NCBI RefSeq assembly: GCF_004010195.1
Contig: NC_057718.1
Location: 80,060,555 to 80,099,291 of the forward strand
Direction: 5' to 3'
DNA length: 38,737 bases
Source of the DNA: Chiloscyllium plagiosum
Taxonomy: Eukaryota
Shown: positions 738 through 34,925 of the stretch, in pieces
Layout of the letters: every line of letters starts with the position of its first letter
How positions within the stretch are numbered: the first letter of the stretch is position 1
The notes under the pieces: generated by a model
Seen by the model: only the letters and a program-made list of their open reading frames with translations
Told to the model about the DNA's origin: nothing
Databases searched by the model: none
Translations under genes and position numbers: made by a program

Positions 738-995
738 TAAACAAAAACAGAAATTTCTGGAGGAAGTAAGCAGATCTGGCAGCATTTGTGGACAGAAAAC
801 AGAGTTAAGTTTTTGGGTCCAGTGACCCATCTTCAGAATTGTGACAGAATTGAAAAAAAATTTTTATCTTGATGACAGGGGGTGGTGGAAAAAGGAGTGA
901 GCACATCGATGGAGACAGAGCCCAGAGACAGAGTGAGGAAAGAAAGTCAAATACTAGTTTTTCGTAGATGCTGAGTTCTGAAGAAGGATCACTGG
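738..995 (-). mobile_element. Penelope-like element terminus fragment (family B) with decayed hammerhead motif
   Basis: Similar to the terminus at 29580-29800. Minus strand 802-840 reads CTGAAGA-T-GGGTC-ACTG-GACCC-AAAAAC-TT-AACTC; a partial inverted copy GAGTTCTGAAGAAGGATCACTGG lies at 973-995. Confidence 0.75.
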
Positions 996-999
996 TAAT

Positions 1000-1380
1000 G
1001 GTAATTGCTGCTAGGTTAAAATTTTATTCTAAATTGAAGATTAATTGATCTTGGTCAACTAGACATATTAAAGGACAAATGGAAAAGACAGAGATATAGT
1101 AATACGGGTTCAACCACAAATCAGGTCAGGCAGCATCCAAGGAACAGGAGAATCGATGTTTCGGGCATAAGCCCTTCCTTAGGAGGCTTATGCCCGAAAC
1201 GTCGATTCTCCTGTTCCTTGGATGCTGCCTGACCTGCTGCGCTTTTCCAGCAACACATTTTCAGCTCTGATCTCCAGCATCTGCAGTCCTCACTTTCTCC
1301 TCAACCACAAATCAGCCAGGATTTCATTTAATGGTGGAATATGCTTTAAGACCAAAATGACCGTATCCTGTTCCTGAGGT
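1000..1380 (+). mobile_element. Old CR1 3' end fragment, interrupted by a fold-back insertion
   Basis: atcagccaggatttcatttaatgg...cctgttcct resembles the CR1 3' end at 6089-6165. Confidence 0.6.
1125..1300 (+). mobile_element. Mini fold-back PLE-terminus insertion 1 (family A)
   Basis: 52-nt inverted arms 1122-1173 and 1185-1236 (1 mismatch); 15-bp TSD TCAACCACAAATCAG at 1110-1124 and 1301-1315. Confidence 0.9.
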
Positions 1381-6907: not shown

Positions 6908-7034
6908 TCTTTGCAATGACTGTTATAACCACTGTGAGTCTGGCATCATATCTATGTAAGATAAGGTACAAGATAAGAATGTCAAGGGTTTTTGACTGAA
7001 GAACGTGAATGAACCAGATGGTTTAAATGATAGG

Positions 7035-8185
7035 AGACAGTAAGGACTGCAGATGATGGAAGTCAGAGGTGATAGATGTGAAGCTGGAAGGGCAGAGCAG
7101 GTCAGACAGCATCTGAGGAGCAGGAGAGTCAAAGATTCAGGCCAAAATCCTTTGTCAAGACTGGGGAGGGGAAGGGAGCCCACTTGTATATAGAGGGAAG
7201 GAGGTGGGGCTGGGAGAGGGGTAGGTGGAATGGTGGTAGGTGAAAGAAGGTTTCTTGTGATTGATCATTGGGAAAGATGAAATGGACAGGTGAGTAGGAA
7301 GATGGACAGGTGAGGACAGGTCAGGGAGGTGAAGAGGAGGGGTGAGGTTAGACATGGAATGAGGCTTGTGGAGGAGGGGTTTTGAAGCTGATGAAGTCAA
7401 ATGTTGAGGCCATTGGACTGTAAGCTTCCAGGCGAAAGATAAGGTGTTATTCCTTCAGTTTCCGTTTGGCCTAACTCTTGACAGTTGAGGAGGCCAAGGA
7501 TGGACGTGTCGACGGGGTATTGGGAGGGGGAAATTAAAGTGGATGACAACTGTAAGATCAGGTTGGTTAATGCATACTGAGTGCAAATGCTCCATGAACT
7601 GGTTCCCGAGTTTGTGTTTAGTCTCCCTGACATAGAGGAGACCAAATCAGGAGCAACGGATGCAATAGATGAGGTCGGATGACGTGTAGGTGAATTTCTA
7701 ACGGATCTGGAAGGATTATTTAGGGCCTTGAACAGAGGTAAGAGAGGAGGTGTGGGGGCAGGAGTTGTACCTCTTACTGTTGCAGAGAAAGGTATCAATT
7801 GTAGTGAAGAAGTTGGTGGGGGGTGTAGAGTTGACGATGGAGTTGCAGAGTGAGCAATCCATGTGGAAAGCAGACAGGGGTGAGGAAAGAAATGTCTTTT
7901 TAGTGGTAGGGTCTGATTGAGGTGGTATAAATGTTGGAGGATGAGACAATGGATTCGGAGGTTGATGGGGTGGTTGGTATCGTTATTGTTGTTGAGTCAA
8001 TTTCCAGAGATGGAGACAGAGAGGTACAGGAGGGGGAAGGAGGTGTCAGAAATGGTCCAGCTGAATTTGAAAGTGGGGTGGAAGGTAATGGTGAAGTTGA
8101 TGAATTGTGGGAGCATGAGGCAGCACCAATGCAGTCATCAATATAATAGAGGAAGAAGTGAGGGCTGGTGCTGGTGTAGTTGCAG
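7035..8185 (-). mobile_element. Penelope-like element (family A-related), minus arm: GIY-YIG region, 3' UTR and terminus
   Basis: Minus 7620-7680 encodes NLIYCIRCS*FGLLYVRET (GIY-YIG). Terminus aggactgcagatg...gcaggtcagacagcatctgaggagcaggag matches the mini elements. Inverted homolog of about 8890-10030. Confidence 0.85.
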
Positions 8186-8189
8186 AAGA

Positions 8190-10040
8190 GGGACTACTTC
8201 ATGAATCCTGCGAAGATAATTGCTGATAAGGGTGGCCCGGTGGTAGCATGGCGAACTGACCAATACATGGCTGAGACCAGATGCAAACTCTCTGACACCT
8301 CCACTTACCATCCCTTGACCATGACCTCTGATCACCAAGACATCATCTCCCAGACCATCAAAAACCTCACCATTTTGGGAGATCTCCCTTCTACAGCCTT
8401 CAATGTGATAGTTCCCCAACCCTGCATCATCCATTTCTATCTCCTACACAAAATCCTTAAACCAGACTGCCCCGCTCAATCCAAGTCATTACCTGCTCCT
8501 GCCCTACCAAGCTCATCTCCTCTTACCTCAACTCTGTTCTTTCCCCTTTGTATAGAAACTCCTCACCTACACTCGAGTCACAACCCACTTCCAAAACTTC
8601 AATTCCCTGGCCCCCAACATCTCATCTCTACCCTTTACACCTGCATCCTTCACAAGGAGGGCCTAAAAGCCCTTTGCTTCTTCCTCTCTTGTAGGCCCAA
8701 CTAGTGCCCCTCCACTGACACCCTTATTCGCCTGGCAGAACAGGTCCTCACCCTCAACAACTTTTTATTTTATTCCTCCTATTTCCTACAAACCAAAGGG
8801 GTAGCCATAGGCACCTGCCTGGGCCCCAGCTATTCCTATCTCTTTGTAGGATTCATGGAACAGTCTTTCTTTCGCAACTACACCAGCATCATCCTTCACT
8901 CCCTCCTTCGCTATATTGATGACTGCATCAGTGCTGCCTCATCTCCCCGTGAGGAGCTCACGTAGTTCATCAACTTCGCCAACACCTTCCACCCCACCCT
9001 CTAATTCACCTAGACCATTTCTGACATCTTATTACCCTTCCTGGACCTCTCCATCTCCATCTCTGGACATGGACTCAGCACTGATATCCATTTCAAACCC
9101 TTTACTCCCACAATTACCTCGTCAACACCTCTCGCCCACCTCCTGCAAAGATGCTACCCCATACTACCAATTCCTCCACCTCCACTGCATCAACTCCCAA
9201 GATACTCCAGGACATCGCAGATATCCTTCTACTTTACGGACCATAGTTTCCCCTCCGCAGTATTTAAGGATGCCCTCAACCATATCTCCTCCATCTCCTG
9301 CACTTCTGCCTTCAAACCCCTTGCTCCCAACAACAATGATAGAGTCCACTTAGTCCTCACATACCACCACACCAATCTCCAAAACCAATACATCATCCCA
9401 TGATATCATCCCATGACAGTTCTGCCAGCTACAATCAGACCCCACCACCAAAACGATATTTCCTTCCCCACCCCTGTCTGCTTTTCACAGTGACTGTTCA
9501 CTCTGAGACTCCCTCATCAACTCTACAATGCCCACCAAATTCTCTTCCACACAGTACCTTTCCCTGCAACTGCAAGAGGTGCAACTCCTGCCCCTACACC
9601 TCCTCCCTCACCTTCGTCCAAGGCCCTAAGCAACCTTTCCAGATCTAACAGAGATTCACCTGTACGTCATCCAACTTCATCTATTGCATCCGTTGCACCC
9701 GATGTGGTCTCCTCTATATCGGGGAGACCAAATGCAGACTTGGGGACCAGTTCACAGAGCAACTGCACTCAATACGCATTAACCAACCTGACCTTCCGGT
9801 TGCCATTCATTTCAATTCCCCCCTACCTTCCAACCCCCAGTCATCCTTGGCCTCCTCCATTGTCAGAGTGAGGCCAAACAGAATGGAGGAACAAAACCTT
9901 ATCTTTCGCCTGGGAAGCTTATAGTCCAATGGCCTCAACATTTGACTTCATCAGCTTCAAAATCCCTCCTCACTAAGCCTTATCCCATATCTAACCTCAC
10001 CCCTCCTCCTCACCTCCCTAACCTGTCCATGTTCCTACAT
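8190..10040 (+). mobile_element. Penelope-like element (family A-related), plus arm: RT + GIY-YIG, pseudogenised
   Basis: ADKGGPVV, GVAIGT, RYIDDC (YIDD 8912-8923), CNCKRCNSCPY and SNFIYCIRCTRCGLLYIGET (9670-9729); many frameshifts and stops. Confidence 0.9.
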
Positions 10041-11182: not shown

Positions 11183-11540
11183 TAGGCCTCCATTCTGACA
11201 GAGCGGTTAGGAGAGAAGGTAGAGAGAAGCGAGGGCTGTTGGGAAGGGTAAGTTTTCCCACTTAAAAAAAGAATTACCTCAGGAGTTGGGCCTCCATTTT
11301 GACAGAGCGGCAAGGAGAGAAGCGAGCGCTGCCGGGAAGGGTAAGTTTTCCCACTTAAAAAGGGACTTACCTCAGGAGTCGGGTCTCCATATTGACAGAG
11401 CAGCGACGAGAGGTGGAGAGAAGCAAGGGTTGCTGGGAAGGGACTTACCTTGGGAGTCAGGCCTCCATTTTGACAGAGTGGCGAGGAGAGAAGATGGAGA
11501 GAAGCGAGGGCTGCCGGGAAGGATAAGTTTTCCCATTTTT
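11183..11540 (+). repeat. Tandem array of about four 80-100 bp monomers in the CR1 5' UTR
   Basis: Unit ggcctccattttgacagagcggcgaggagag...gaagcgagggctgccgggaagg starts near 11185, 11288, 11381 and 11460. Confidence 0.9.
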
Positions 11541-12705: not shown

Positions 12706-13367
12706 CGAATGTGGCAGGGGGCTTGGAACCAGAGGGGAAGACAAGTAGACAGCGAGATGGAAATTGGAGACTGTAAGAATCATGAAGTTAGCGTTGATAA
12801 AATAGCATTAATAAGGGGAAGATGGGGCAGACAGCAGATGAACGCAAAAGAACTGGTGGCCTGAAATGCATCTACTTTAATGCAAAGAGTACAGTGTGTA
12901 AGGCAGATGAGCTTAGGGCTTGGATTGGTGCCTGGGAGTATGACATTATTGCAATCACTGAGACTTGGTTGAAGGAAGGGCATGATTGGCAACTAAATGT
13001 TCCAGGATATAGACCGCTTCAGACAGGACAGGAGGGAAGTAAAAGTGGGGGTGGAGTTGCACTGCTGGTCAGGGATGATATCACAGCTTGGGTAGTGAAG
13101 CATTATGGGTGGAGCTGAGAAATAAGAAGGGTGCAGTTACATTGTTGGGGCTGTATTACAAGCCTCCCAACAGTGAGCGTGAGGCAGAAGAACAAATACG
13201 TAAGCAGATTATGGAAAGATGTAGAGGCAATAGGGTAGTGGTGATGGGAGATTTTAATTTTCCCAACATTGACTGGGATACACTTAGCGTCAGAGGTCTG
13301 GATGGGGTAGAATTTGTAAGAAGCATACAGGAGATTTTCTAGAGCAGTATGTCAATAGTCTGATGAG

Positions 13368-13547
13368 ATTCTGGATTAGAGGTACTGGAAAAGCACAGCA
13401 GTTCAGGCAGGTATTCCTGATGAAGGGCTTTTGCCCGAAACGTCGATTTTACTGCTCCTCGGATGCTGCCTGAACTGCTGTGCGTTTCCAGCACCTCTAA
13501 TCCAGAATCTGGTTTCCAGTATCTGCAGTCATTGTTTTTACCTTTTA
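13368..13547 (+). mobile_element. Mini fold-back PLE-terminus insertion 2 (A-related subfamily) inside the CR1 endonuclease
   Basis: 45-nt inverted arms 13366-13410 and 13466-13510 (2 mismatches); 14-bp TSD AATAGTCTGATGAG 13354-13367 and AATAGTCCAATGAG 13548-13561. Confidence 0.88.
13411..13452 (+). ncRNA. Minimal type I hammerhead ribozyme motif, core intact
   Basis: CTGATGA (13417-13423), A, GGGC-TTTT-GCCC, GAAA (13437-13440), CG, TC; predicted cleavage after C13444. Stem I is weak. Confidence 0.8.
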
Positions 13548-16500
13548 AATAGTCCAATGAGGGAAGGGGCCATATTGGACCTGGTAATGGGGAATGAGCC
13601 AGGACAGGTGGTAGAAGTTGCAGTCGGGGATTTCTTTGGGAACAGTGACCACAATTCTGTAAGTTTTAGAATACTCATAGACAAAGATGAGAGTGGTCCT
13701 AAGGGAAGAACACTAAACTGGGCCAAGGTCAATTATTTCAAAATTTGGCAGGAGCTGGGAAATGTGGACACAGCTATTTGAAGGGAAGTCTGCATTTGAT
13801 ATGTGGGAGGCTTTCAAAGATAGGTTAAAGATAGTGCAGGATAGGCATGTCCCGTTGAAGGCAAAGGATAGGAAAGGCAAGATTTGTGAACCGTGGATGA
13901 CAGGAGAAATCGTACGACTAGCCAAGAGGAAAAGGGAAGCGTACATAAGGTCCAGGCAGCTAAGAACAGAATGGGCCCTAGAGGAATATCGGAAGAGTAG
14001 GACCAGTCTTAAATGAGGAATCAAGCGGCTAAAAGGGGTCATGAAATAGCTTTAGCGAACAAAATTAAGGAGAATCCCAAAGCATTTTATTCTTATATAA
14101 GAAGCAAATGGGTACTTAAAGAAAGGGTTGGTCCATTAAAGGCTAATGAAGGAAAGCTGTGTGTCGAACCTGAGAGAATGGGTGAGATTCTGAATGATTA
14201 CTTTGCATCAGTGTTCACAAAAGAGAGGAACATGATGAATGTTGGGATTAGAGATAGAAGTTTGATTAGTCTGGATCAGGTTGACATAAGTAGGGAAGAT
14301 GTGTTGGCAAGGCTAGAGGTTATTAAATCCTCAGGACTGGATGGGATCTATCCCAGGTTGCTGAGGGAGGCGCAAGAGGAAATAGCTGGGGCCCTAGCAG
14401 ATATCTTTCTGGCATCCTTAAACAGATGAGGTGCCGGAAGACTGCTCACATTGTTCCTCCTGTACAAGAAGGGTAGTAGGGATATTCCAGGTAACTACAG
14501 ACCAGCGAACCTGACGTCAGTGGTGGGAAAGTTGCTGGAGTAGGTACTGAGGGATAAGATCTAATGATATTTAGAAAAGAATGGGCTCATCAGGTTTTGT
14601 GCGGGGGAGATCGTGCCTTACCAACTTAATAGAGGTCTTTGAGGAAGTGACCAAGTTCTTTGAGGAAGTGACCAAGTTGATAGATGAAGGAAGGGCTGTT
14701 GATGTCATATACATGGATTTTATTAAAGTATTTGATAAGGTTCTACATAGTAAAGTAATATAGAAAGTGGAGTCACATGGTGTGCAGGGTGTTCTAGCTA
14801 GGTGGATAAAGAACTGGTTGAGCAACAGGAGACAGAGAGTAGTAGTTGAAGGGAGTTTCTCAAAATGGAGAAAGGTGACCAGTGGTTTTCCACAGGGATC
14901 AGTGCAGGGGCTACTGTTGTTTGTGATGTACATAAATGATCTGGAAGAGGGCACTGTTGGTATGATCAGCAAGTTTGCAGATGACATGAAGATTGGAGTA
15001 GGAGAAAGCATAAGGGAGTCAAAGAACACAGGAGAATATAGATAGACTGGAGAGTTGGGTGGCAAAGTGGCAGATGGAGTTCAATCCAGGCAAATGTGAG
15101 GTGATGCATTTAGGCAAGTCTAATTCTAGAGCAAATTATACAATGAACGGAAGAGCCTTGGGAAAGGTTGATGAGCAGGGAGATCTGGGAGTGCAGGTCC
15201 AATGTACCCTGAAGGTTGCTGCACAGATGGATAGAGTGGGCAAGAAGGCATATGCTTGCCTTCACCGGACAGGGTATTGAGTATAAGAGCTGGCAAGTCA
15301 TGTTGCAATTGTACAAGACATTGGTTCGGCCACATTTAGAATACTGTGAACAGTTCTGGTCACCACATTACCAAAAGGATGTGGACGCTTTGGAGAGGGT
15401 GCAGAGAAGGTTTATGAGGAGGTTGCCTGGTATAGAAGGTGCTAGCTATGAAGAGAGGTTGAGTATATTAGGTTTGTTTTCATTAGAAAAAAGGAGATGG
15501 GGGGGGACGGGGACCTGATTGAGGTCTACAAAATCATGAAGGGTATAGACAGAGTAGATAAAGATAAGCTTTTTCCCAGGGTGAAGGATTCAATAACGAG
15601 AGGTCACGCTTTCAAGGTTGAGAGGTGAAAAGTCTCAGGGGGATACATGCGGCAAGTGCTTTACACAGAGGGTGGTGAGTGTCTGGAACGCGTTGCCATC
15701 AGAGGTAGTGGAGGCAGGCACGGTAGATTCATTTAAGATGCATCTGGACAGATGCATGAGTAGGTGGGGAACAAAGGGATACAGATGTTTAGAAATTGGG
15801 TGACAGGTTTAGACAGTGGATTTGGATCGGCTCAGGCTTGGAGGGCCGAAAGGCCTTTTCCTGGGCTGTAAATTTTCTTTGTTCTTTTCTTTGTTCTTTA
15901 GCACCCAATCACAACACAATGCCATCCATGCTCTCAAAACCAATCACAATATTGTCATCAAACAAGCAGATAAAGGAGGAGACATCATCATTCAGAATAA
16001 ACTGCCTATTGCAAGGAAGTGTACCAACAACTGAAGAACCAGGAACACTATAGGCAACTGCCAGCCTATCTGACCAAAGAGCACACCCATGAACTAAAAC
16101 ATTGATCTTTGATGCAGTCGTTCAGAGCCCTCATCCCATGTACTTCTTGCGTAGGAGACTTCTACTGCCTACTGAAGATACACAAAGCTAACACACCAGG
16201 ACATCCCATCATATCAGGCAATGGGACCCTGTGTGAGAACCTCTCTGGTCATGTCAAAGGCATCTTGAAACCCATTGTACAGGGGACCCCCAGCTTCTGT
16301 TGCGACACTACAGATTTCTTACAGAAACTCAATACCCATGGACCAGTCGAACCGGGAACATTCCTCGTCACAATGGATGTTTCAGCACTCTATACCAGCA
16401 TTCCCCACAATGATGGCATCGTGGCAACAGCCTTAGTACTCAATACCAACAACTGCCAGTCTCCGGCACTATCCTACAACTCATCCGCTTTATCCTCGAT

Positions 16501-18229
16501 CACAATGTTTTCACCTTTGACAACCAGTTCTTCATCCAGACACATGGAACAACTGTGCGGACCAAATTTGCACTCCAATATGCTAACATTTTCATGTACA
16601 AGTTTGAACAAGACTTCTTCTCTAAGCAGGACCTCCAACCAACACTATACACAAGGTATATTGACGACATTGTCTTCCTCTGGACCCATGGCGAGGAATC
16701 ACTGTAACAATGATACAGGGATAACAACGAGTTTCATTCCACATCAAACTCACCATGGACTTTCTTTAGTATCTGCCTCATTCTTGGACACATGCATCTC
16801 CATCAAAGATGGGCACCTCCGCTCCTCATTGTATCGCAAACCCACGGATAACCTCATGATGCTACACTCCTCTAGCTGCCACTCTAAACACATTAAAACA
16901 GCCATCCCCTATGGACATGCCCTATATATATATACACAGGATCTGTTCAGATGAGGGGGAATGTGACAGACACATGGAAGTACTCAAGCATGCTCTTATA
17001 AGAACAGAGTACAATGCTCAACTCATCGATCTCCAGTTCCGACGTGCTACTGCGATAAACCGTAATGACCTCGTTAGGAGACAGACATGAGCTGCAACCA
17101 ATAGGGTACCCTTTATGGTCCAGTACTTCCCGGGAGCCGAAAAACTATGCCATGTTCTTTGCAGCCTGCATAACATTATCAATGAGGATGAGCACCTCGC
17201 CACGATCTTCCCCACATCTCCACTTCTTGCCTTTAAACAACCATCAAACCTCAAACTGATCATTGTTCGCTGCAAACTCCCTGGCCTTCAGGACAACACC
17301 ATACATACTGCCCCGGCAGCTGCTGCAAGACGTGTCAGAATGTCGACATGGATACCACCATTACACATGGGGACACCACCTACCATGTATGTGGCAGGTG
17401 CTCATGTGTCTCTGCCAACGGTGCCTATTTCATATGCTAAAGGCAAGGATGCCGTAAGGCATGGTACATTGGCAAGACCGAGCCCACACACACACACAAA
17501 CACACACTCTCCTCTGGACTGACACACCCACGCAGACAGTCTCTCATCCACAAGCTCTCTCTCATACACTCATGCATACACCCCCCACACTCACATACAC
17601 ACATATAAGTTTGTGGAGTGAATTTGTACTTGCAGAATTACATTTTATTTTGCACAAAAATTGCATAAACCCATGAAACATTCTGTGAATCTCACTTTAG
17701 AAATAGAATCAGCCTGACCTAACATTGGGACACAGACAGACTTTAACTTCACACCTTCAATGCATTATCTGAGCTGAGATGACACCTGTTGTTAAAAGCT
17801 ATCTTGCGAATGTAACTTTTAAAAAGTTCTGGGATTTACATATGAAGGAACTGAAACTAACATGATTTTTCTAAAAGATGAAAGACACAAGCTAAATTTG
17901 TTTAATATTACATTCCATGACACTGCAATCCTGTTGCAATAAATTCTGTGTCGTATGATTCTGCTCCACAACCACCCAATGAAGGAAAGCTAATCCTTTC
18001 TTTTATAATCTATGCCTGTATTAGTAAACCTTAAGATATGGTATGCCTTATTGATTTCTTTCAATCTGTCCTGCCATCTTTAAGTATGGTGGCAGCAAAA
18101 CTACCAGATGGATCTTACACTATCCCAAACTGCAGTGAGGAATCATCATACCACATGATGGCAATGAGTTGCAATATACAAGGCACTGGCAGCTATCTGT
18201 CAGAGACTGGTTGAGCAAACAGTCAGTAG

Positions 18230-19680
18230 TTGGATAGTCTTGGCTATAAGCCCTTAGCATGGTTTTTAATGTCTGGTGCCACCTTTCTAGTGGAGAAAGT
18301 GAGGACTGCAGATGCTGGAGATCAGAGCTGAAAATGTGTTGCTGGAAAAGCGCAGCAGGTCAGGCAGCATCCAAGGAACAGGAGAATCGACGTTTCGGGC
18401 ATAAGCCCTTCACGTCGATTCTCCTGTTCCTTGGATGCTGCCTGACCTGCTGCGCTTTTCCAGCAACACATTTTCAGCCACCTTTCTAGTGCCTCCTGCA
18501 TTTCTGGATGGTATGCAGTAGGCTTGAATTGTTTTATTTCTAAGCTGTCCATAACCTCCTTGAACAATTTTGATGTAAAATGTGACTCTTGACATGACTG
18601 CATCTCTGTGGTTGTCTGTATCTAGTAAAAAAATTGAGTAACTCTTCTACAATCCTTTTAACTGCGATATTGTGTTATGGAACGGCTTCTAAAACCTAGC
18701 GGACACATCCATTATTGTCAACAAACACTGATTTCCACTTTGTTTTAGGTTGGGATCCCACACTATCAATTAAGAGTCTTGTAAAAGGTTCCTCAAATGC
18801 AGGAATTGATATTAAAGGTGCAGATTTTATTACTGCCTGAAGTTTTTCAATTACCTGACATGTATGACATGTCTGGCAAAATTCAACTCCATTCTTATGC
18901 AGTCCAAACCAGTCGTAATATTTTGTATTTTAGTTTGAATTTATCTTAAATGACCTCCTACTGGTAATTAATGTGCTACCCGCAACACCCCCTTTGTACA
19001 ACCCCACTGGTAATATGCTTTGATGAACTTCTGCCCATTTCTCATCTGACTGAATATGTGATGGTCTCTATTTCCTCATTAAGACATCATTTAAGATAGT
19101 AGCACATAGAGATACACTCAGATTCTTCTTCTGTGTATGCTTTTTGATACAATTGCTTCAGTTTTTCATCTTTCTGTTGTAACTCAGTTAATTTCTCTGA
19201 GCTAAAATTATCCTCCACCTGCACCTGTTTTGTCTCAACCATTCAACTTCCTTATCTGTATTCTTTGATTTCTCCTCCTGTTTCAACTGGTGACTTTGTG
19301 ACCTTGTTACCACAGAGTCAGGAAAAATCCCAAGATATGCTTCTTGTAAGACCTCAATTGCCTGATTTTCCACTGGCTTTTCAAGCACAGAGGGCAGCAG
19401 TCCTACCTGTGAACTAGCTGTATCGTTAGCAGGGATGAACTGATTTCCTGCAGCCGAGAGCTCTTCCATTATCCCTCCCACGACTTCTCCATTTCTCTCT
19501 GCTCACTCTAACCTCACTCGACATAATTGAACAATCCTCGTCTCACCGTGAATTCCATGTACTAACACTTTTTCTGGCTTCACTTCTCCTCATCTCTCAA
19601 CATCAAAAACTGACACAATCCTGTATCTCTTAATAACTGTTACCACTTTATTTGATGCTCCTGGCCTGTGCAAGTAAACC
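18230..19680 (-). pseudogene. pol remnant: aspartic protease + integrase
   Basis: LRDTG at 19619-19633; FCQTCHTCQ near 18856-18882; TAYHPEMQEALERWHQTLKTML, split by the insertion at 18293-18476. Confidence 0.85.
18293..18476 (-). mobile_element. Mini fold-back PLE-terminus insertion 3 (family A) inside the integrase
   Basis: Perfect 67-nt inverted arms 18327-18393 and 18412-18478; perfect 15-bp TSD GCCACCTTTCTAGTG at 18278-18292 and 18477-18491. Confidence 0.93.
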
Positions 19681-19851: not shown

Positions 19852-21044
19852 ACACTGTGATTTCATGTGGCCTACTTTATTGCAGTGAAAACACTACAGC
19901 TTTTTAACTTGCTTTTCCCCTTCATGCGTTTCCTTTTTACCCTGTAGTAAGCTATCTTTATGACCTTCATCGAGATCTGTTTTCCCCAATTTCTATCCTT
20001 CATGATAGAAATTGATGGTGGAAGCCAAACTTTGATTTATGAACTAACTTATAATCATCAGCCATTTCAGTTGCTAATCTTGCCGTTTTAACCCTCTGCT
20101 CTTCCAAATGAGTACTCAGTATTTCAGGAAGTGAGTTTTTGAACTCCTCCAAAATAATTGTCTCTCTAAGATTGTCATAGGTTTGCTCTATTTTTAATAC
20201 CCTTATCCACCTGTCAAAATTACTTTGTTTGATCCTTTCAAATTCAATGTTTGTCCGAACAGGGTCCCTCCTTAGATTCCTGAAACCTTGTTTGTAGGCT
20301 TCAGGTACAAGCTTATCTGCACTTAAGATGGCTTTCTTCACCTCCTCATACTCCCCAGACACCTCCTCTAATAGTGATGCAAATACCTCACTAGCTCTAC
20401 CTACTAGCTTTGTTTGGATCAACAAAACCCACATGGTCACTGGCCACTTTATTTGTTTAGCCACCTTCTCAAATGAGATGAAAAGAGCTTCGACATACTT
20501 CTCATCAAATTTAGGCAATGCTTGGACATACTTAAACAGATCCCCACCATGCTTTTGGCTACGATGGGCTTGCTCACCTTCACTAAGCCTACCTTCCACC
20601 TTCAGCTCCACCCTTTCAAGCCGGCTTTCCTGTCTAAGTACCAATTTATGAAGTTCAAACTCTCGCTCTTTCTCTCTTTTCTCTTCCTCCTTTTCTTCTT
20701 CCTCTTTCTCCCTTTCTTCTGCTAGGGCCTTCCCCTCCATTTCCTTTTGTTCTGCTAAAGTGATTCTGTCCTTTTTGTTTTGTTCTGCCAGGGCAATTTG
20801 TTCTTTTTCTCTTTCCTCTGCTTTTAATCAAAATTCAAAATGCTTCATTTTTTTCTCTTTTTTTTGCCTCTAACTCAAACTGCTTCATTTTCAATTGAAT
20901 TTTAGCCACTTCCAAAGATTCTGATGGTGTTTCTAGCAAATTTAAATGCTGAGCTAATGCTGCAATTATACCTCCCTTTCTCATGGATGAAGGCAACTCC
21001 AACTCCAGGTTGTCTGCCAATTCCAGCAGCTTTGCCTTGCTCAC
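19852..21044 (-). pseudogene. gag: charged coiled coil, capsid/SCAN-like domain, CCHC zinc knuckle
   Basis: ORFs 20835..21044 and 20000..20740 (LPKFDEK...FEKVA...WP...LVPEAYKQGFR...IILEEFKNSLP); CFHCNKVGHMKSQC at 19852-19893. Confidence 0.88.
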
Positions 21045-24580: not shown

Positions 24581-25179
24581 AGGAAAACTAAAGCTTTCCT
24601 GTTGAAATAGAACATGCTTGGGAAATAAGGTGATAGAATCATAGAATTTTACAGTATAGAAGGAGGTCATTTGATCCGTCGTGTCTGTACTGGCTCCTAA
24701 AAGGCTCCAGCTAGTTCCATTCTTCAGTTCAATCTCCATAGTCCTCTAAACTCATCACTTACAAATACATATTCAGCTCTCTTTTGAAACCTCCCATGGC
24801 ATCTGCTTCCACCACTCTTCCAGGCTGTGCATTCCAAATGCTAATAACTCTCTAAGAGGTCTTTCCATATCTCACTCCAGCTTCTTGCTGATAGTCTTGA
24901 AATTATGATGCCTCGCTGCTGACATACCAACAAAAGGAAACAGAATATCATTCTTTGACCTGACAAAACTGTTAGTAATTTTGAACACCTCAATAAGGTC
25001 ACCTCTTAATCTTCTCTACACGAAGAGAATAAGCCCAATTTCTCTAATCATTCCTTATATCTAAAATCCATCACTCTTATAAATCTCCTTTTCACTTTTT
25101 CCAGTGCTTTAAAATCCTTCCTTAGATAAGATGCCCAGAATTGAACATAATACTTCTAATGTGGTCTGACCAATGATTT

Positions 25180-25351
25180 CGACGTTTCCGGCATAAGCCC
25201 TTCTTCAGGAATTCCTGAAGCCATTCCTGAAGAAGGGCTTATGCCCGAAACATCGATTCTCCTGTTCCCTGGATGCTGCCTGACCTGCTGCACTGTTCCA
25301 GCAACACATTTTCAGCTCTGATCTCCAGCATCTGCAGACCTCACTTTTTCC
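25180..25351 (+). mobile_element. Mini fold-back PLE-terminus insertion 4 (family A)
   Basis: 34-nt inverted arms 25179-25212 and 25223-25256; perfect 14-bp TSD CTGACCAATGATTT at 25166-25179 and 25352-25365. Confidence 0.92.
25221..25260 (+). ncRNA. Minimal hammerhead motif, with a second copy on the minus strand at 25179-25212
   Basis: Plus: CTGAAGA (25227-25233)-A-GGGC-TTAT-GCCC-GAAA-CA-TC. Minus: CTGAAGA-A-GGGC-TTAT-GCCG-GAAA-CG-TC. Confidence 0.75.
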
Positions 25352-27004
25352 CTGACCAATGATTTGCAGAGCTGTCGCATCACTTCCTTGCTTTGATACT
25401 CTATGCCTATATTGATTCACCAAAGGATTCCAGAAGCCTTCTTAAGAACTGTTTCAACTTAACTGGCCACCTTCAGAGAATTATGCACTTCAACCCGAGG
25501 TCCCGCTGAGCCTGTACTCCCCTCACAATTATGCCATGAAGCCAGTATTGTTGTTCTGTGTTTCTTCAGCCAAAATGCATTACCTAACTTTTCTCTGCAC
25601 TGAAATTCATCTGCCAGGTATCTGCCCATTTGGCCAACTTGTCAATGTCCCATTGAAGTCGCCCAGGATCATTGTCACAATTCACTATTCTCAATAGCTT
25701 CGTGTCATCTCAAATTTAGAAATGTTGCTCTCAACACTCATCTTATAATCATTAATGTAAAACAGAAAAAGGAAAGGTCCCAACACTGATCCCTGGGGAA
25801 CACAATTTTCAACTCGTCTCCAAGCTGAGAAATATCCATCTATACCTACCCACTGTTTCCTATCTTTTAGCCAACTTCTAAACCATACTGCCAGGAACCC
25901 ATCAATCCCAAACATTTCTAATTTACTAACTAATCTGCCATGTGGCACTATATCAAATGTTTTCTGAAAACTTCACAGCACTACCCTCATCTACTGTCTG
26001 TATAACCTTGTCAATAACACAATTAAATTTGTCAGACATGCCCTGCCCTTGACAAAGCCATGCTGACTATATAGCATTAACTTATTTTTCCCTAAGTATA
26101 TTTATCTTATCCCACATTATGGCCCCCACTAGGTTTCCCGTTGTTGATGTCAAGTTGACAGGGCTGGAGTTTCCTGGGTTATCCTTTGCAACGTTCTTAA
26201 ACAACAGCATCACATTTGTAATCTTCCAGTCTCCTAGGACTAACCCTGAGTTCAGCGAGACCTGGAAAATTACTGTCAAAGGTTCCGCAATTTACTCCCT
26301 TACCTCTCGCAGCAAGCAAGGAAGTGTGCCATCCGGGCCTGCTGACTTCTCTACCTGGATTGCTGCCAGTCTATTTAGTACTTTTTCTTTATCTATTGCT
26401 AAACTGCTCAGTTGCTCAACACGCACATTTTCAATTGGGCCATTGTCACCATTTTATAGCTTGGTAAAAACAGAAGCAAAGTAGTCACTTCCTACCTCGA
26501 CTGTACTCTTTGCTTCAGTGAGCAGCTTACCCTACTTGTTCCTTATGGGCCCCATTCTTTCAATAATCTTTTACTACTAATATGTTTGAAGAACGTTTTG
26601 CTATTTGTTTAGTGCAGCCTGCAATCCTTTCCCCACTTCCTTTTAGACTCCCTTAGACCAGTCTTAGCCTCTCTTCCGCATTTGAGACACTCTTCCTAAT
26701 GTCCATTGCGTTATTATTCCAATATCCATCATATGCCTCCTTCTCCTTCCTTATTTTCTCATCAATATCCTTAGTCATCCGTATTTGGATACTCCATATT
26801 TATTTCTAATGGATATGTACCTAGATTGCACCTTATTCATCTCTCTTTTGAAAGACTCCCATTTTTCATCCCCTGTTTTATCCATCAACATACATTCCAA
26901 TCAACATGCCCCAGTTCAACTTTTAGACCTCCAAAATCTGTCTTTTTCAAGTCTGGGATCCTAATCCTTGTTTCATTTTTATCCTTTTCCAATTTAATAT
27001 TGAA

Positions 27005-29579: not shown

Positions 29580-31535
29580 CAAATAAAAGTAGAAGTTGCT
29601 GTAAAAGTTCAGCAGGTCTGGCAGCATCTGTGAAGAGAAATTAAAGTTAATGTTTCAGGTCCAGTGACCCTTCCTCACTACTGATGATAGCTAGAAAAAT
29701 GTTGGCATATATGCAGAAGATAGTGTGGAGGGAGGAGGTAAGGAATAATTGATAAGTAGGGATAGAGCCCATAGAGGGAGAAGAACAGCTGGACAGACAA
29801 AGGAGTCAATAAAAATCTAGCTAGGAGAGTGAATCGCTGTTAATGGAAACTACTAGCGGCGAACAATGGGTAGTGTGGAATGGCAGACTATGTGATTACA
29901 AGGCTGGGCATATGGTGTAGGAGGCTGGATCACAGGGGAGTTCAGGCCCAAAAAAATGATTGAACTCGATATTGAGTTTGGAGGGCTGCAGGGTTGCCAA
30001 TGAGATGTTGTTCTTCCAGATTGCGCTGAGCTTCGCTGGAGCACTGCAGCAAGCCTGAGACAGAAATATTGGTCAAATGGTATGTTAATGTGGAAGACAA
30101 CTGGGAGCTCAGCATCTTTTTTTTGTGGTCAGAACGTAGATGTTCTGTGAAGTGGTTACCCAGTCTCTGCTTCATTTCCCCAATGTACAGGAGACCACAC
30201 TGTGAGCAAGAAATTAGATCGTGTGAAGTGCAGGTAAAGTGTTGCTTCTCCTGGAAGACGTATCTGGGCCTTTGGATACTGAGGAGGGAGGAAGTAAATG
30301 GGTTGGTGTTACACCTTCAGTGGTTGCAGGGAAAGATGCCATGGAGCTGTGGGGAGTTGTTTGGAGTGAAGGAAGAGTGAACCAGAGTGTCCAGGATAGA
30401 ACTTTCCTTTGGAAGGCGGACAAGGAAGGGGAGGGGACAAGAGTCTGGTAGCGGCATCTCACTGGAGGTGGTAGAAATGGGAGCTGATGTACGTGGATAC
30501 TGGTGGGATGGTCGGTAACGACAAAGGAAACCCTATTGCGGTTGCGGGATGGAAGAAAGAGGGTGAAGGCGCGAGTACAGGAGATGGGTTGGACCTGATT
30601 GAGGAAGAAGGTGGACATTTCAGAGGCTCCCTGATCAAAGTTGGCCTATCGGAACATATGTAATGGAGACAGAGGAGCTGGGAGAATGGAATGGAGTCTT
30701 TACAGGAAACATGGTGTGAGGATGTATAGTCCAAGTGGCTGTGGAGTCAGTGGGTTTATAAATATTAATGGTCGTCTATCCTCAGAAATGGAAACAGAAA
30801 TGTCGAAGAAGGGGAGGAGGAGTCAAAGATAGACCATGTGAAAGTGAGGGTGGGGTGGAAATTGGAAGCGAAATCGATGAGCGTTTTCAATTCTAGATAA
30901 GAGAGGGAAGCAGCACTGATGATATCATTGAAATATCATATAAAGAATTATGTGTCATGTACCACATGAAGTGACAGGCATAACTGGGGCCAATGCCACC
31001 CCTCTGACCTGAAGACAATGAGAGGAGTTAAAAGAGAAGTTGTTGAGGGTGAGGATGAGCGCGGCCAAGCTGATGAGGTTGGTGGTGGGTGGACACGGTT
31101 CAGGCCTTTGCTCAGGAAGAAGCGGAGAGCCCTGAGACCATCTGGTGAGAGATGGACGTGTAAAGGAATTGCAGATCCATAGTAAAGAGGAGCCAGCTGG
31201 AGCCTGCAAACTGAAAATCACAAAACTGGCATAAAGTATCAGAGGAATCATGGATGTACATGGGCAGGAACTGGATCAGGGAGAAAAGACTGAGTCAAGA
31301 TTGGAAGAGATGAGTTCTGTAGAGCAGGAGCAAACTGAAACAATGGGTCTGCCTGAGGAGTCTTGCTTGTAGATTTTTGGAAAGTGGTAGAAGCGAGTTG
31401 TGTGGGGTTGGGGGACTATCAGCTTGGATGCAGTGGGGCAAGATCACCTGACGAAAGGAGGTCAGTGATTGTAGTTGATACAATGGCCTGATATGCCATG
31501 GTGGGATCATGGTCCGGAAGAAGATTGGAGGTGTC
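29580..31535 (-). mobile_element. Penelope-like element family B (RT + GIY-YIG + terminus), decayed
   Basis: Minus: CSQCGLLYIGEMKQRLGNHFTEHLR near 30135-30210, MDYTSSHHVSCKDSIPFSQ, VRGVAL; decayed hammerhead near 29646-29680. Confidence 0.85.
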
Positions 31536-33361: not shown

Positions 33362-34925
33362 AGTTAAAAATCACACAACACCTGGTTATAGTTCAACAGA
33401 TTTCATTAGAAGCACTAGCTTTCAGAGCATTGCTTCTTCATCAGGTGGTTGTGCAGTATAAGATTTTAAAACACGATTTGGAGATGCCGTGTTGGATTGG
33501 GGTGTTGGACACAGAATTTATAGCAAAGGTTTATAGTGTGACATAATTGAAATTATATATTGAAAAAGACCTGGATTGTTTATTAAGTCTCTCATCTGTT
33601 AGAATGACCATGTTGGTTTCTGTTCTTTCATAAGTAAATCGTAAAACATTTTTAAAAGTGACATTCTCAAGTGAACTTTAACGATTGGTGACATGTTGAC
33701 CCAGATAATGTATTGAAGGTGTGAGCTTCCCTGTGTGAGACAGTCTGTGCCACAATGGTCAGACTGTCTCTAATCTAAAAAAATGATTTACAGAATCTGA
33801 CATGGATACATGCAGTTTTTGAGCAAAGTAAAATATAATTCTGCAAGTACATATTCACCCCACAAATTTATATGTATGTGCATGTGTGTGTGTTAGAGTT
33901 AATGGTGTCTGTGTGAGAGTGAGTGTAAAAGGGTATAGGTCTGTGAGAGAGTGTGTGTAAAAGTATGGGAGTGTATGTGTGAGCATATGAGAGAGGGTCT
34001 GCGTGAGTGTGTGTGTGTCTGTAGGAGCGTGTGTGTGTGTGTGTATATATGTAGGAGTCAGGAAGTAAATGTCATCAATATACCTGGTGTATAGTGTTGG
34101 TTAGAGGCCCTGCATAGAGAAGAAGTCTTGTTCGAACCTGTGCATGAAAATATTGGCATATTGGGGCGCACGTTTGGTCCCCATGGCTGTTCGTATGTCT
34201 GGCTGAAGAACTGGTTGTCAATGGTAAAGTTGTTGTGATCGAGGATAAAGTGGATGTAGTTGTAGGACGGTGCTCGGAGACTGGCAGTTGTTGGTGTTGA
34301 GTACTGAATCTGTTGCCGCATTGCCGTCATTGTGGGGGATGCTGGTGTAGAGTGCTGAAACGTCCATTGTAATGAGGAATGTTCCCAGTTCAACTGGTCC
34401 ATGGGTACTGAGTTTCTGTAAGAAATCTGCAGTGTCGCAACAGAAGCTGGGGATCCCTGTACAATGGGTTTCAAGATGCCTTTGACATAGCCCAAGAGGT
34501 TCTCACATAGGGTCCCATTGCCTGATACGATGGGACTTCCTGATGTATTGGCTTTGTGTATCTTTGGTAGGCAGTAGAAGTCACCTACACGAGAAGTACG
34601 TGGGATGAGAGTGCGTAGGGAATTCTGAAGGACTGGATCCAAAGTCCTGATCGATGTGTTTAGTTCATGGGTATGCTCTTCGGTCGGATCGGCTGGTAGC
34701 TGCCTGTCGTGTTCCTGGTTCTTCAGTTGTCGGTATATTTCTTTGCAGTAATCTGTTCTATTCTGAATGACGATGGCTCCTCCTTTATCTGCTGGTTTGA
34801 TGACAATGCTGTGATTGGCTTTGAGAGCATGGATGGCATTACGTTGTGTTCAGGTGATGTTCTGCTCCAGCTTGTGGATGTGGCTGATGAACCTGGCATT
34901 TATAAATTTCCTGACAGTTTCCATG
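33362..34925 (-). mobile_element. PLE family C copy with internal deletion (RT 5' half joined to the 3' UTR and terminus)
   Basis: ORF 34058..34642 parallels 16109..16954; LYTRYIDDIYF runs straight into the CA microsatellite; 3' UTR is the inverted homolog of about 17590-17970. Confidence 0.9.
33411..33449 (-). ncRNA. Minimal hammerhead motif (family C), stem II partly decayed
   Basis: Minus: ACCAC-CTGATGA-A-GAAGC-AAT-GCTCT-GAAA-GC-TA-GTGCT; stem I CAC/GTG; AGCT palindrome in place of stem III. Confidence 0.75.

What the first reader, a model, noticed from the sequence alone, without database searches (positions are those of the whole stretch)
18278..18491. Fold-back points cluster at the ribozyme; this copy looks very recent
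Seen: perfect 67-bp arms and perfect 15-bp TSD; 18293-18407 is the exact reverse complement of 1185-1299. The inversion junction falls inside the hammerhead here and at 1174-1184 (CTGATGA lost), and just 5' of it at 13411, 25213 and 27255. Inference: ribozyme structure or cleavage sets where RT stalls or switches template, and the family may still be active.
Basis: partly seen in the sequence, partly recalled or inferred. Interest (0 to 1): 0.7.

Follow-up and report, generated by a model that had tools for sequence, protein, structure and literature searches.

The report
Two-primed Penelope stubs, not ribozyme fold-backs
This 214-base mirror-image insert is a young stub of a very common Penelope-type jumping gene, missing at the same site in a related species; its two arms were likely copied separately from one RNA and joined, and arms of this family stop 20-39 bases before the predicted ribozyme cut site, likely at the RNA's capped start, which would give a testable clue to how this poorly understood class copies itself.

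Summary
Observation confirmed: perfect 67-bp arms, perfect 15-bp TSD, 116 nt identical to 1185-1300. It is the end repeat of a Neptune-type Penelope-like element (PLE) with a minimal hammerhead motif. Clustering is real: in 1.79 Mb of unselected DNA, 62 of 114 arm ends lie 20-39 nt 5' of the predicted cut site, 1 of 114 within 3 nt of it. So cleavage does not set the point, and ends are scarcest where stem II would stall RT. 'Fold-back' is not supported: 67 of 67 TSD-flanked pairs join one tailed arm and one tail-less arm, and in 30 of 57 each arm holds sequence the other lacks. The modal end (-31) is the A of an initiator-like TCATTCC, preceded by a G absent from the element in 3,955 of 6,556 young copies, likely cap copying. 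The site is empty in a related species and filled in 4 of 5 same-species runs, so the copy is recent; current activity is unshown. The layout is published; I did not find the mechanism in print. This scan noted it repeatedly before, in this and other genomes.

The parts
18278..18292 (+). left copy of the 15-bp target-site duplication; last G shared with the tailed arm
   Evidence: one copy only, at the empty site, in related-species contigs
18292..18411 (-). tailed arm: element end read on the minus strand from -22 (inside the hammerhead core) to the tail end
   Evidence: 116 nt identical to 1185-1300
18292..18326 (-). 35-nt PLE 'tail', present on this arm only
   Evidence: 67 of 67 TSD-flanked pairs have it on one arm only
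18327..18393 (-). part of the tailed arm that is perfectly complementary to the right arm (67 bp)
18394..18411 (-). 18-nt spacer holding hammerhead stem II (GGGC-TTAT-GCCC); CTGAAGA core start lost, so this copy holds no complete ribozyme motif
18412..18478 (+). tail-less arm, -4 to +62; predicted cut site between 18416 and 18417; last GC shared with the right TSD
18477..18491 (+). right copy of the 15-bp TSD
1110..1315 (.). sister insertion: short tail-less arm 1122-1184 (minus), tailed arm 1185-1300 (plus, from -18), 15-bp TSD
25166..25365 (.). sister insertion: 33-nt tail-less arm (+1 to -31), 8-nt templated filler, tailed arm from -33, 14-bp TSD
13362..13538 (.). older-subfamily sister: tail-less arm stops at +22, GT, tailed arm starts at -31; no TSD passed my score
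27007..27347 (.). older sister: tailed arm to -134, 15-nt filler, tail-less arm from -29; degenerate TSD

Best explanation
This is a two-armed, 5'-truncated insertion of a Neptune-type Penelope-like element with a 15-bp target duplication, likely made when both nicked target strands each primed a DNA copy of one uncut RNA, one from the tail end and one about 36 bases further in, and the two copies were then joined head to head. Arm ends of the family pile up 20-39 nt before the predicted hammerhead cut site (shown). The likely cause is that the enzyme runs off the capped 5' end of a transcript begun at an initiator in the terminal repeat (A at -31), often adding a base opposite the cap (inferred). 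End-joining would then trim the ends and pair them through 0-3 nt inverted microhomologies or short templated fillers (microhomology excess shown, repair pathway inferred). On this reading the ribozyme only lies next to the RNA start.
For: (a) 56 of 56 TSD-flanked pairs, and 11 of 11 in a second sample fetched later, have one tailed and one tail-less arm; 59 of 67 tail-less 3' ends fall at +55..+68, median +62; 61 of 67 TSDs are 12-17 bp. (b) In 30 of 57 resolved elements the tail-less arm runs >=5 nt further 5' than the tailed arm, so neither can be a copy of the other. (c) Many apparently single copies carry a tiny opposite arm and stop in the same zone. (d) Arms of one element agree at subfamily-diagnostic sites: 262 of 278 against 57% shuffled; among 22 young elements 62 of 64 against 58%, none of 5,000 shuffles as high. 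(e) The modal end is -31, 13 of 114, the A of TCATTCC, which fits initiator consensus YYANWYY (recalled). Genome-wide exact matches fall from 30,866 at -30 to 24,005, 17,449, 14,204 and 7,596 at -39. (f) The base before -31 is G in 3,955 of 6,556 non-C cases (60%; 26% expected from composition), against 14 of the first 100 listed one position downstream and 19 of 100 one position upstream, both counted by eye. None of the 20 G loci among 30 viewed continues into upstream element sequence. (g) Mean inverted microhomology is 1.43 nt at 23 blunt joints against 0.70 null, p=0.002. (h) In vitro, a lizard PLE protein nicks and extends both strands, starts at two sites bounding the tail, is predicted to be a dimer and needs no ribozyme cleavage (PMC11167929). 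D. virilis Penelope has an internal promoter with an initiator in its terminal repeat (PMC2377424).
Against: No RNA 5' end was observed; the start site rests on genomic footprints. The stop zone is broad, with losses continuing at about 10% per base from -34 to -39 (partly subfamily variation). Of 20 G loci viewed, only 7 have a G explained by neither neighbour; 8 share it with the target and 5 with the opposite arm (by eye). With a looser pattern over the unselected sample G was only 5 of 44 non-C cases (31 T, mostly an older subfamily's own base; 8 A), so the excess is shown only for the exact young pattern. G+ATTC equals the first five bases after the cut site, so a jump onto a cleaved fragment could also add the G. 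The finding's own copy has no G and joins -22 to -4 without microhomology. PMC11167929 saw no difference in start site between the two strands in vitro, whereas the genome shows strict asymmetry. A few pairs without a TSD look tail/tail or tail-less/tail-less (35 of 91 pairs had no TSD and were left out). Arm concordance could also come from gene conversion or two RNAs of one source locus. No copy showing what follows the tail in a full-length element was found.
Confidence: 0.62

Rival explanations
1. Two primings as above, but the stop zone is a structural or protein-bound barrier at the 5' edge of the hammerhead (helix I, a ribozyme dimer, or bound PLE protein), not the RNA end.
For: The zone coincides with the core's 5' edge and is broad. 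The lizard ribozyme is protein-assisted (PMC11167929).
Against: Stops are scarcest at the 3' foot of stem II. The region folds no better than shuffles, z=-0.07, and helix I is at most 3 pairs. A barrier does not explain a position-specific G.
Confidence: 0.17
2. One reading: one cDNA stalls at the ribozyme or at its cleaved end, folds back and copies itself. A related published model is self-priming on an antisense template (PMC3846280).
For: This copy alone fits: its tail-less arm lies wholly within the tailed arm and matches it perfectly. Small snap-back fillers occur at some joints. PMC3846280 argues from palindromes at inverted junctions.
Against: 30 of 57 elements have arms that cannot copy each other. 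Tail-less arms end at a fixed +62 rather than at random. 1 of 114 ends lies at the cut site.
Confidence: 0.08
3. Cleavage contributes a minor class, or supplies the extra G by a jump of a cDNA ended at -31 onto the cleaved 3' fragment, which starts GAUUC.
For: 934 against 669 copies at +1 versus +2. The 25180 arm has its 3' end at +1. 20 copies show the matching tandem join, so this jump does happen.
Against: The excess is 1.4-fold, with two different letter sets and unmeasured mutation background. The 20 tandem joins compare with 3,955 G copies. The jump still needs a prior stop at -31. Metazoan minimal hammerheads cleave poorly in vitro (PMC4209133).
Confidence: 0.08
4. -31 is a splice junction, as the D. 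virilis intron ends at the 5' edge of helix I (PMC4209133), and the G is the last base of an upstream exon.
For: A pyrimidine tract precedes -31; published precedent.
Against: There is no AG before -31 (it reads TC), and the 20 G loci share no upstream exon sequence.
Confidence: 0.04
5. Assembly or library chimera.
For: Perfect hairpins can be library artefacts (general knowledge); long inverted copies carry N stretches.
Against: Perfect TSD; empty site with one TSD copy in a related species; the left junction is present in contigs of four runs from two studies; 67 TSD-flanked sisters with diverged arms.
Confidence: 0.01

Closest known systems
Endonuclease-positive PLE insertion unit: inverted 5'-truncated copy with a one-sided 30-40-bp tail (PMC8557442, passages; PMC3846280, passages and Discussion)
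   Same: Head-to-head inverted ends, tail on one end only, TSD, heavy 5' truncation, hammerhead motif in the terminal repeat.
   Different: Those papers ascribe the tail to endonuclease resolution and the inversion to antisense self-priming. In the passages read they give no junction histogram, no strict tailed/tail-less pairing and no extra G.
Poseidon element of Anolis in vitro (PMC11167929, parts 1-2 of 4 read)
   Same: Two start sites bounding the tail, both strands nicked and extended, uncut RNA used.
   Different: Poseidon clade, AT-rich targets; the paper does not link two-strand priming to inverted copies or describe 5' run-off, and sees no strand difference in start site. This family is Neptune-type by motif.
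Minimal type-I hammerheads of metazoan PLEs (PMC4209133, passages)
   Same: CUGAnGA core, 4-bp stem II, GAAA, palindromic ACGU instead of a stable helix III.
   Different: Helix I is marginal here; activity is untested; this copy has lost the core start.
L1 twin priming and retroviral minus-strand strong-stop DNA (both recalled, no call)
   Same: Twin priming: both target strands prime on one RNA and are joined by microhomology. Strong-stop: priming near the RNA 5' end and run-off at the cap.
   Different: L1 arms are largely non-overlapping and the second primer lands at variable sites; here both arms copy the same stretch from two fixed sites. No tRNA primer or integrase is involved.

Membership tests
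EN+ Penelope-like element | RT followed by C-terminal GIY-YIG endonuclease, continuous with this terminal repeat | tested here: met
   L219 aligns without gaps of N over 1,995 nt to L118 and runs into the repeat. Broken frames show GLTF, FFRRLRLRAYFF, KPADK, YIDD, LPFLDL and IIYCIRC..CGLLY in that order. Read by motif only: Pfam and PDB gave no hit on the fragments.
EN+ Penelope-like element | single intact ORF between pseudo-LTRs (partial tandem) | tested here: inconclusive
   None of 15 long loci fetched is full-length; long 'open frames' were N stretches.
EN+ Penelope-like element | inverted 5'-truncated copy, one-sided 30-40-bp tail, TSD | tested here: met
   35-nt tail and 15-bp TSD; 67 of 67 pairs.
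Neptune clade | CX2-5CxxC zinc-finger linker before the endonuclease (PMC8557442) | tested here: met
   CNCKKCKTC in L118 and L219. Nematis shares a reduced linker and was not excluded.
Neptune clade | placement in an RT tree | not tested
   No reference PLE proteins were fetched.
minimal PLE hammerhead | conserved core, stem II, palindromic positions 15.2-16.2 | tested here: met
   Column conservation over 45 rows; stem II folds. Rfam has no hammerhead hit at E<=1.
minimal PLE hammerhead | closing helix I | tested here: inconclusive
   At most C-G, U-A, a U.U mismatch and A-U; not in the predicted fold.
minimal PLE hammerhead | self-cleavage | not testable with these tools
   Needs an assay.
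self-copied fold-back (snap-back) inversion | second arm is a sub-sequence of the first | tested here: not met
   Fails in 30 of 57 elements; holds for the finding's own copy.
non-LTR retrozyme | tandem direct monomers bounded by hammerhead cut sites | tested here: not met
   Copies are dispersed and inverted, with ends off the cut site; the preprint 10.64898/2026.07.22.740005 was seen as passages.

The most novel reading that the evidence does not exclude
Every PLE integration is a two-ended reaction: an enzyme dimer primes both target strands on one capped RNA at two fixed sites about 36 nt apart near its 5' end, making two strong-stop-like cDNAs that run off the cap. This one rule would explain the one-sided tail, the inverted ends and the mass of short stubs, and would mean that long copies need read-through RNA from partial tandems or a retrovirus-like jump.
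Probability: 0.5. Interest if true: 0.72.

Novelty: new member of a known kind. Interest (0 to 1): 0.5.

Why it matters
The PLE replication cycle is called undefined in the literature read (PMC8557442, PMC11167929). This genome holds tens of thousands of young footprints: 55,950 exact matches to one 20-mer. They give sharp predictions for an existing in vitro system: one tailed plus one tail-less product per event, both from one RNA, run-off at -31 with a cap-dependent base, and no need for cleavage. PLE RTs are the sister group of telomerase (PMC8557442). The single insertion is also a clean presence/absence marker between two species. The element and its layout are ordinary.

Tried and rejected
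DNA search of the own genome found nothing because common words are skipped; I sampled 1.79 Mb of non-N sequence instead (18 blocks on 16 contigs plus the window). Rfam: no hammerhead family, only chance miRNA-like hairpins below threshold. Pfam on 16 window ORFs: only a SCAN domain; on 5 PLE fragments: none; PDB sequence search: none. Full-length copy and repeat-to-ORF junction: not found in 15 long loci, nor among 97 and 75 tail-downstream flanks. No RNA holder was listed as on record, and no RNA reads were laid. Within-species polymorphism: run X8's contig stops at 18291, at the TSD edge, at depth 5, which is uninformative; 311 joints were hidden, so an empty allele in species A is not excluded. 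Profile divergence upstream of -32 as an artefact: checked on joints with gaps of <=3 nt, where 47 of 68 arms still end at -36..-10. Perfect arms as proof of youth: weak, since 7 of 43 compared elements have identical arms. Literature: searches found no paper stating two-strand priming or cap run-off for PLE inversions; the library lacks most subscription journals, and supplements of the papers read were not opened.

Full report
Observation. Every measurable statement holds: 67-bp perfect arms (18327-18393, 18412-18478), a 15-bp perfect TSD (18278-18292, 18477-18491) and identity with 1185-1300 over 116 nt. I number from the predicted hammerhead cut site (0 = C of GAAACGTC). The left arm reads on the minus strand from -22 to the element's end and includes a 35-nt tail; the right arm reads on the plus strand from -4 to +62 and lacks it. 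The young subfamily has CTGAAGA, not CTGATGA. Of the other junctions cited, only 25213 has both arms just 5' of the core; 13411 joins +22 to -31 and 27255 joins -134 to -29.

Identity. Long copies run upstream into a broken ORF with GLTF, KPADK, YIDD, LPFLDL, a CNCKKCKTC linker and a GIY-YIG-like stretch with two cysteines, the motif order given for Neptune-type PLEs in PMC8557442 (passages). Pfam and PDB did not hit the fragments and no tree was built. The motif at the end fits the minimal hammerheads of PMC4209133 (passages); Rfam does not score it, and helix I is marginal. One 20-mer of it has 55,950 exact matches in the genome.

Histogram. I sampled unselected blocks: 1.40 Mb first, then 0.39 Mb as a check. 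The first gave 92 head-to-head pairs. One segmental duplicate was dropped; 56 of 91 had a TSD (the finding's own TSD was set by hand because the automatic end overshot); 48 of 56 had a resolved junction and 8 were long or N-filled. The second gave 22 pairs, 11 with TSD, 9 resolved. Pooled, 62 of 114 arm ends lie at -20..-39, 74 at -36..-10, 3 at -9..0 and 1 within 3 nt of the cut site; the mode is -31. The stop rate per 10 nt is at most 0.07 from +60 to -9, 0.11 at -10..-19, 0.34 and 0.49 at -20..-39, 0.16 and 0.10 at -40..-59, and near zero beyond -70. Apparently single copies stop in the same zone. Genome-wide, copies with A/G just before +1 number 934 against 669 with C/T just before +2, about 1% of an estimated 100,000 (53 sample hits scaled up; the same scaling overshoots a known count by a third). 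Clustering is real, but neither the cut site nor the foot of stem II is where arms end.

Not a fold-back. All 67 TSD-flanked pairs have one tailed and one tail-less arm; tail-less 3' ends have median +62, with 59 of 67 at +55..+68. A few of the 35 first-sample pairs without a TSD look otherwise. In 30 of 57 elements the tail-less arm reaches at least 5 nt further 5' than the tailed arm, and in 13 the reverse. In those 30 each arm has sequence the other lacks, so both were templated separately. The finding's own copy is one where self-copying cannot be excluded, but its short arm ends at the family's fixed site. Arms of one element share subfamily alleles (262 of 278 against 57% shuffled; 62 of 64 against 58% among young elements), which points to one RNA or one source locus; gene conversion is not excluded. 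This matches the in vitro behaviour of the Anolis element: both strands cut and extended, two starts bounding the tail, no need for cleavage (PMC11167929, parts 1-2 of 4), except that no strand difference in start site was seen there. Blunt joints carry more inverted microhomology than chance (1.43 against 0.70 nt, 23 joints); other joints have short fillers.

Why the stop zone. The modal end is the A of TCATTCC, an initiator-like motif (consensus recalled); D. virilis Penelope has an internal promoter with an initiator in its terminal repeat (PMC2377424, passages). Exact young-subfamily matches lose 22%, 27% and 19% at -31, -32 and -33, then about 10% per base to -39. Where the match breaks just before -31 the base is G in 3,955 of 6,556, against 14 and 19 of the first 100 listed at the neighbouring positions (by eye). 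Copying of the cap by RTs is recalled knowledge; my searches found no paper for it. Against: of 20 G loci viewed, 7 have a free G, 8 share it with the target and 5 with the other arm; a looser pattern in the unselected sample gave G in 5 of 44; and GATTC also follows the cut site, though the tandem join expected from a jump onto uncut RNA occurs only 20 times. A splice junction is unlikely, as there is no AG and no shared exon. No RNA evidence was obtained.

Age. In three runs of a related species (three samples, two studies) one contig runs from 18277 straight to 18477: the empty site with one TSD copy, with flanks differing at 4-5 of 278 and 1 of 77 bases plus one gap. In four runs of the species with the highest word share, contigs run from the left flank 12-22 nt into the element; one of these may be the assembled sample, and a fifth stops at the TSD edge. 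The copy postdates the split and is at least common in its species. Perfect arms say little by themselves (7 of 43 elements have them). Activity today is not shown, and no full-length copy was found.

Prior knowledge. The layout, an inverted truncated copy with a tail on one end, is published (PMC8557442; PMC3846280, passages and Discussion), with antisense self-priming proposed. Searches found no paper giving two-strand priming or cap run-off as the cause; subscription journals and supplements were not seen. After I had reached and noted this reading, the scan's notes showed the same reading many times in this and other genomes. These are unchecked AI notes, not support; two of them prompted the cut-site test.

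Verdict. A real, young, ordinary PLE stub. Shown: clustering, off-cut-site ends, strict tailed/tail-less pairing, allele concordance, G excess in the young subfamily, empty site in a relative. Inferred: two primings on one RNA (about 0.78) and run-off at a capped start (about 0.65); jointly with the rest about 0.6. New member of a known kind; interest 0.5 because it makes an open mechanism directly testable.

Noticed in passing
window 20003-20827 (-): 275-aa open frame with a SCAN domain (PF02023, E 2.7e-9, residues 175-264); in fishes often part of Gypsy-like elements (recalled).
   Followed up: no
window 7033-10028: Large old head-to-head arrangement of PLE ORF fragments, with nested inverted arms 79-91% complementary.
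   Followed up: partly
window 25180-25212: Tail-less arm whose 3' end lies at +1, one base from the predicted cut site; it could be priming on a cleaved 5' fragment or on a 1-nt microhomology.
   Followed up: partly
L211-L215: 20 genome copies carry a tandem duplication of the hammerhead core joined through the ATTC repeated at -31 and +2; L211 has it on both arms.
   Followed up: partly
window 1190-1270 (+): An ATG sits in the loop of stem II, as the Anolis ORF starts at stem II (PMC11167929); the frame closes after about 26 codons in the young subfamily but stays open through the tail in L118.
   Followed up: no
window 739-835 and 29581-29677: A second, related terminal-repeat family, 75% alike between the two copies.
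   Followed up: no
window 11184-11538: Degenerate tandem of about 93-bp units.
   Followed up: no
window 15902-17719 and 33757-34856: Two copies of another long repeat in opposite orientation, 78-90% alike, 16-19 kb apart.
   Followed up: no
L226-L231, L218-L225: Most long young copies carry 0.5-3.4 kb of N in the middle of large inverted repeats, which biases any junction census towards short copies.
   Followed up: partly
L225 208-454: A tailed arm followed 127 nt later by a second isolated tail with a similar flank.
   Followed up: no
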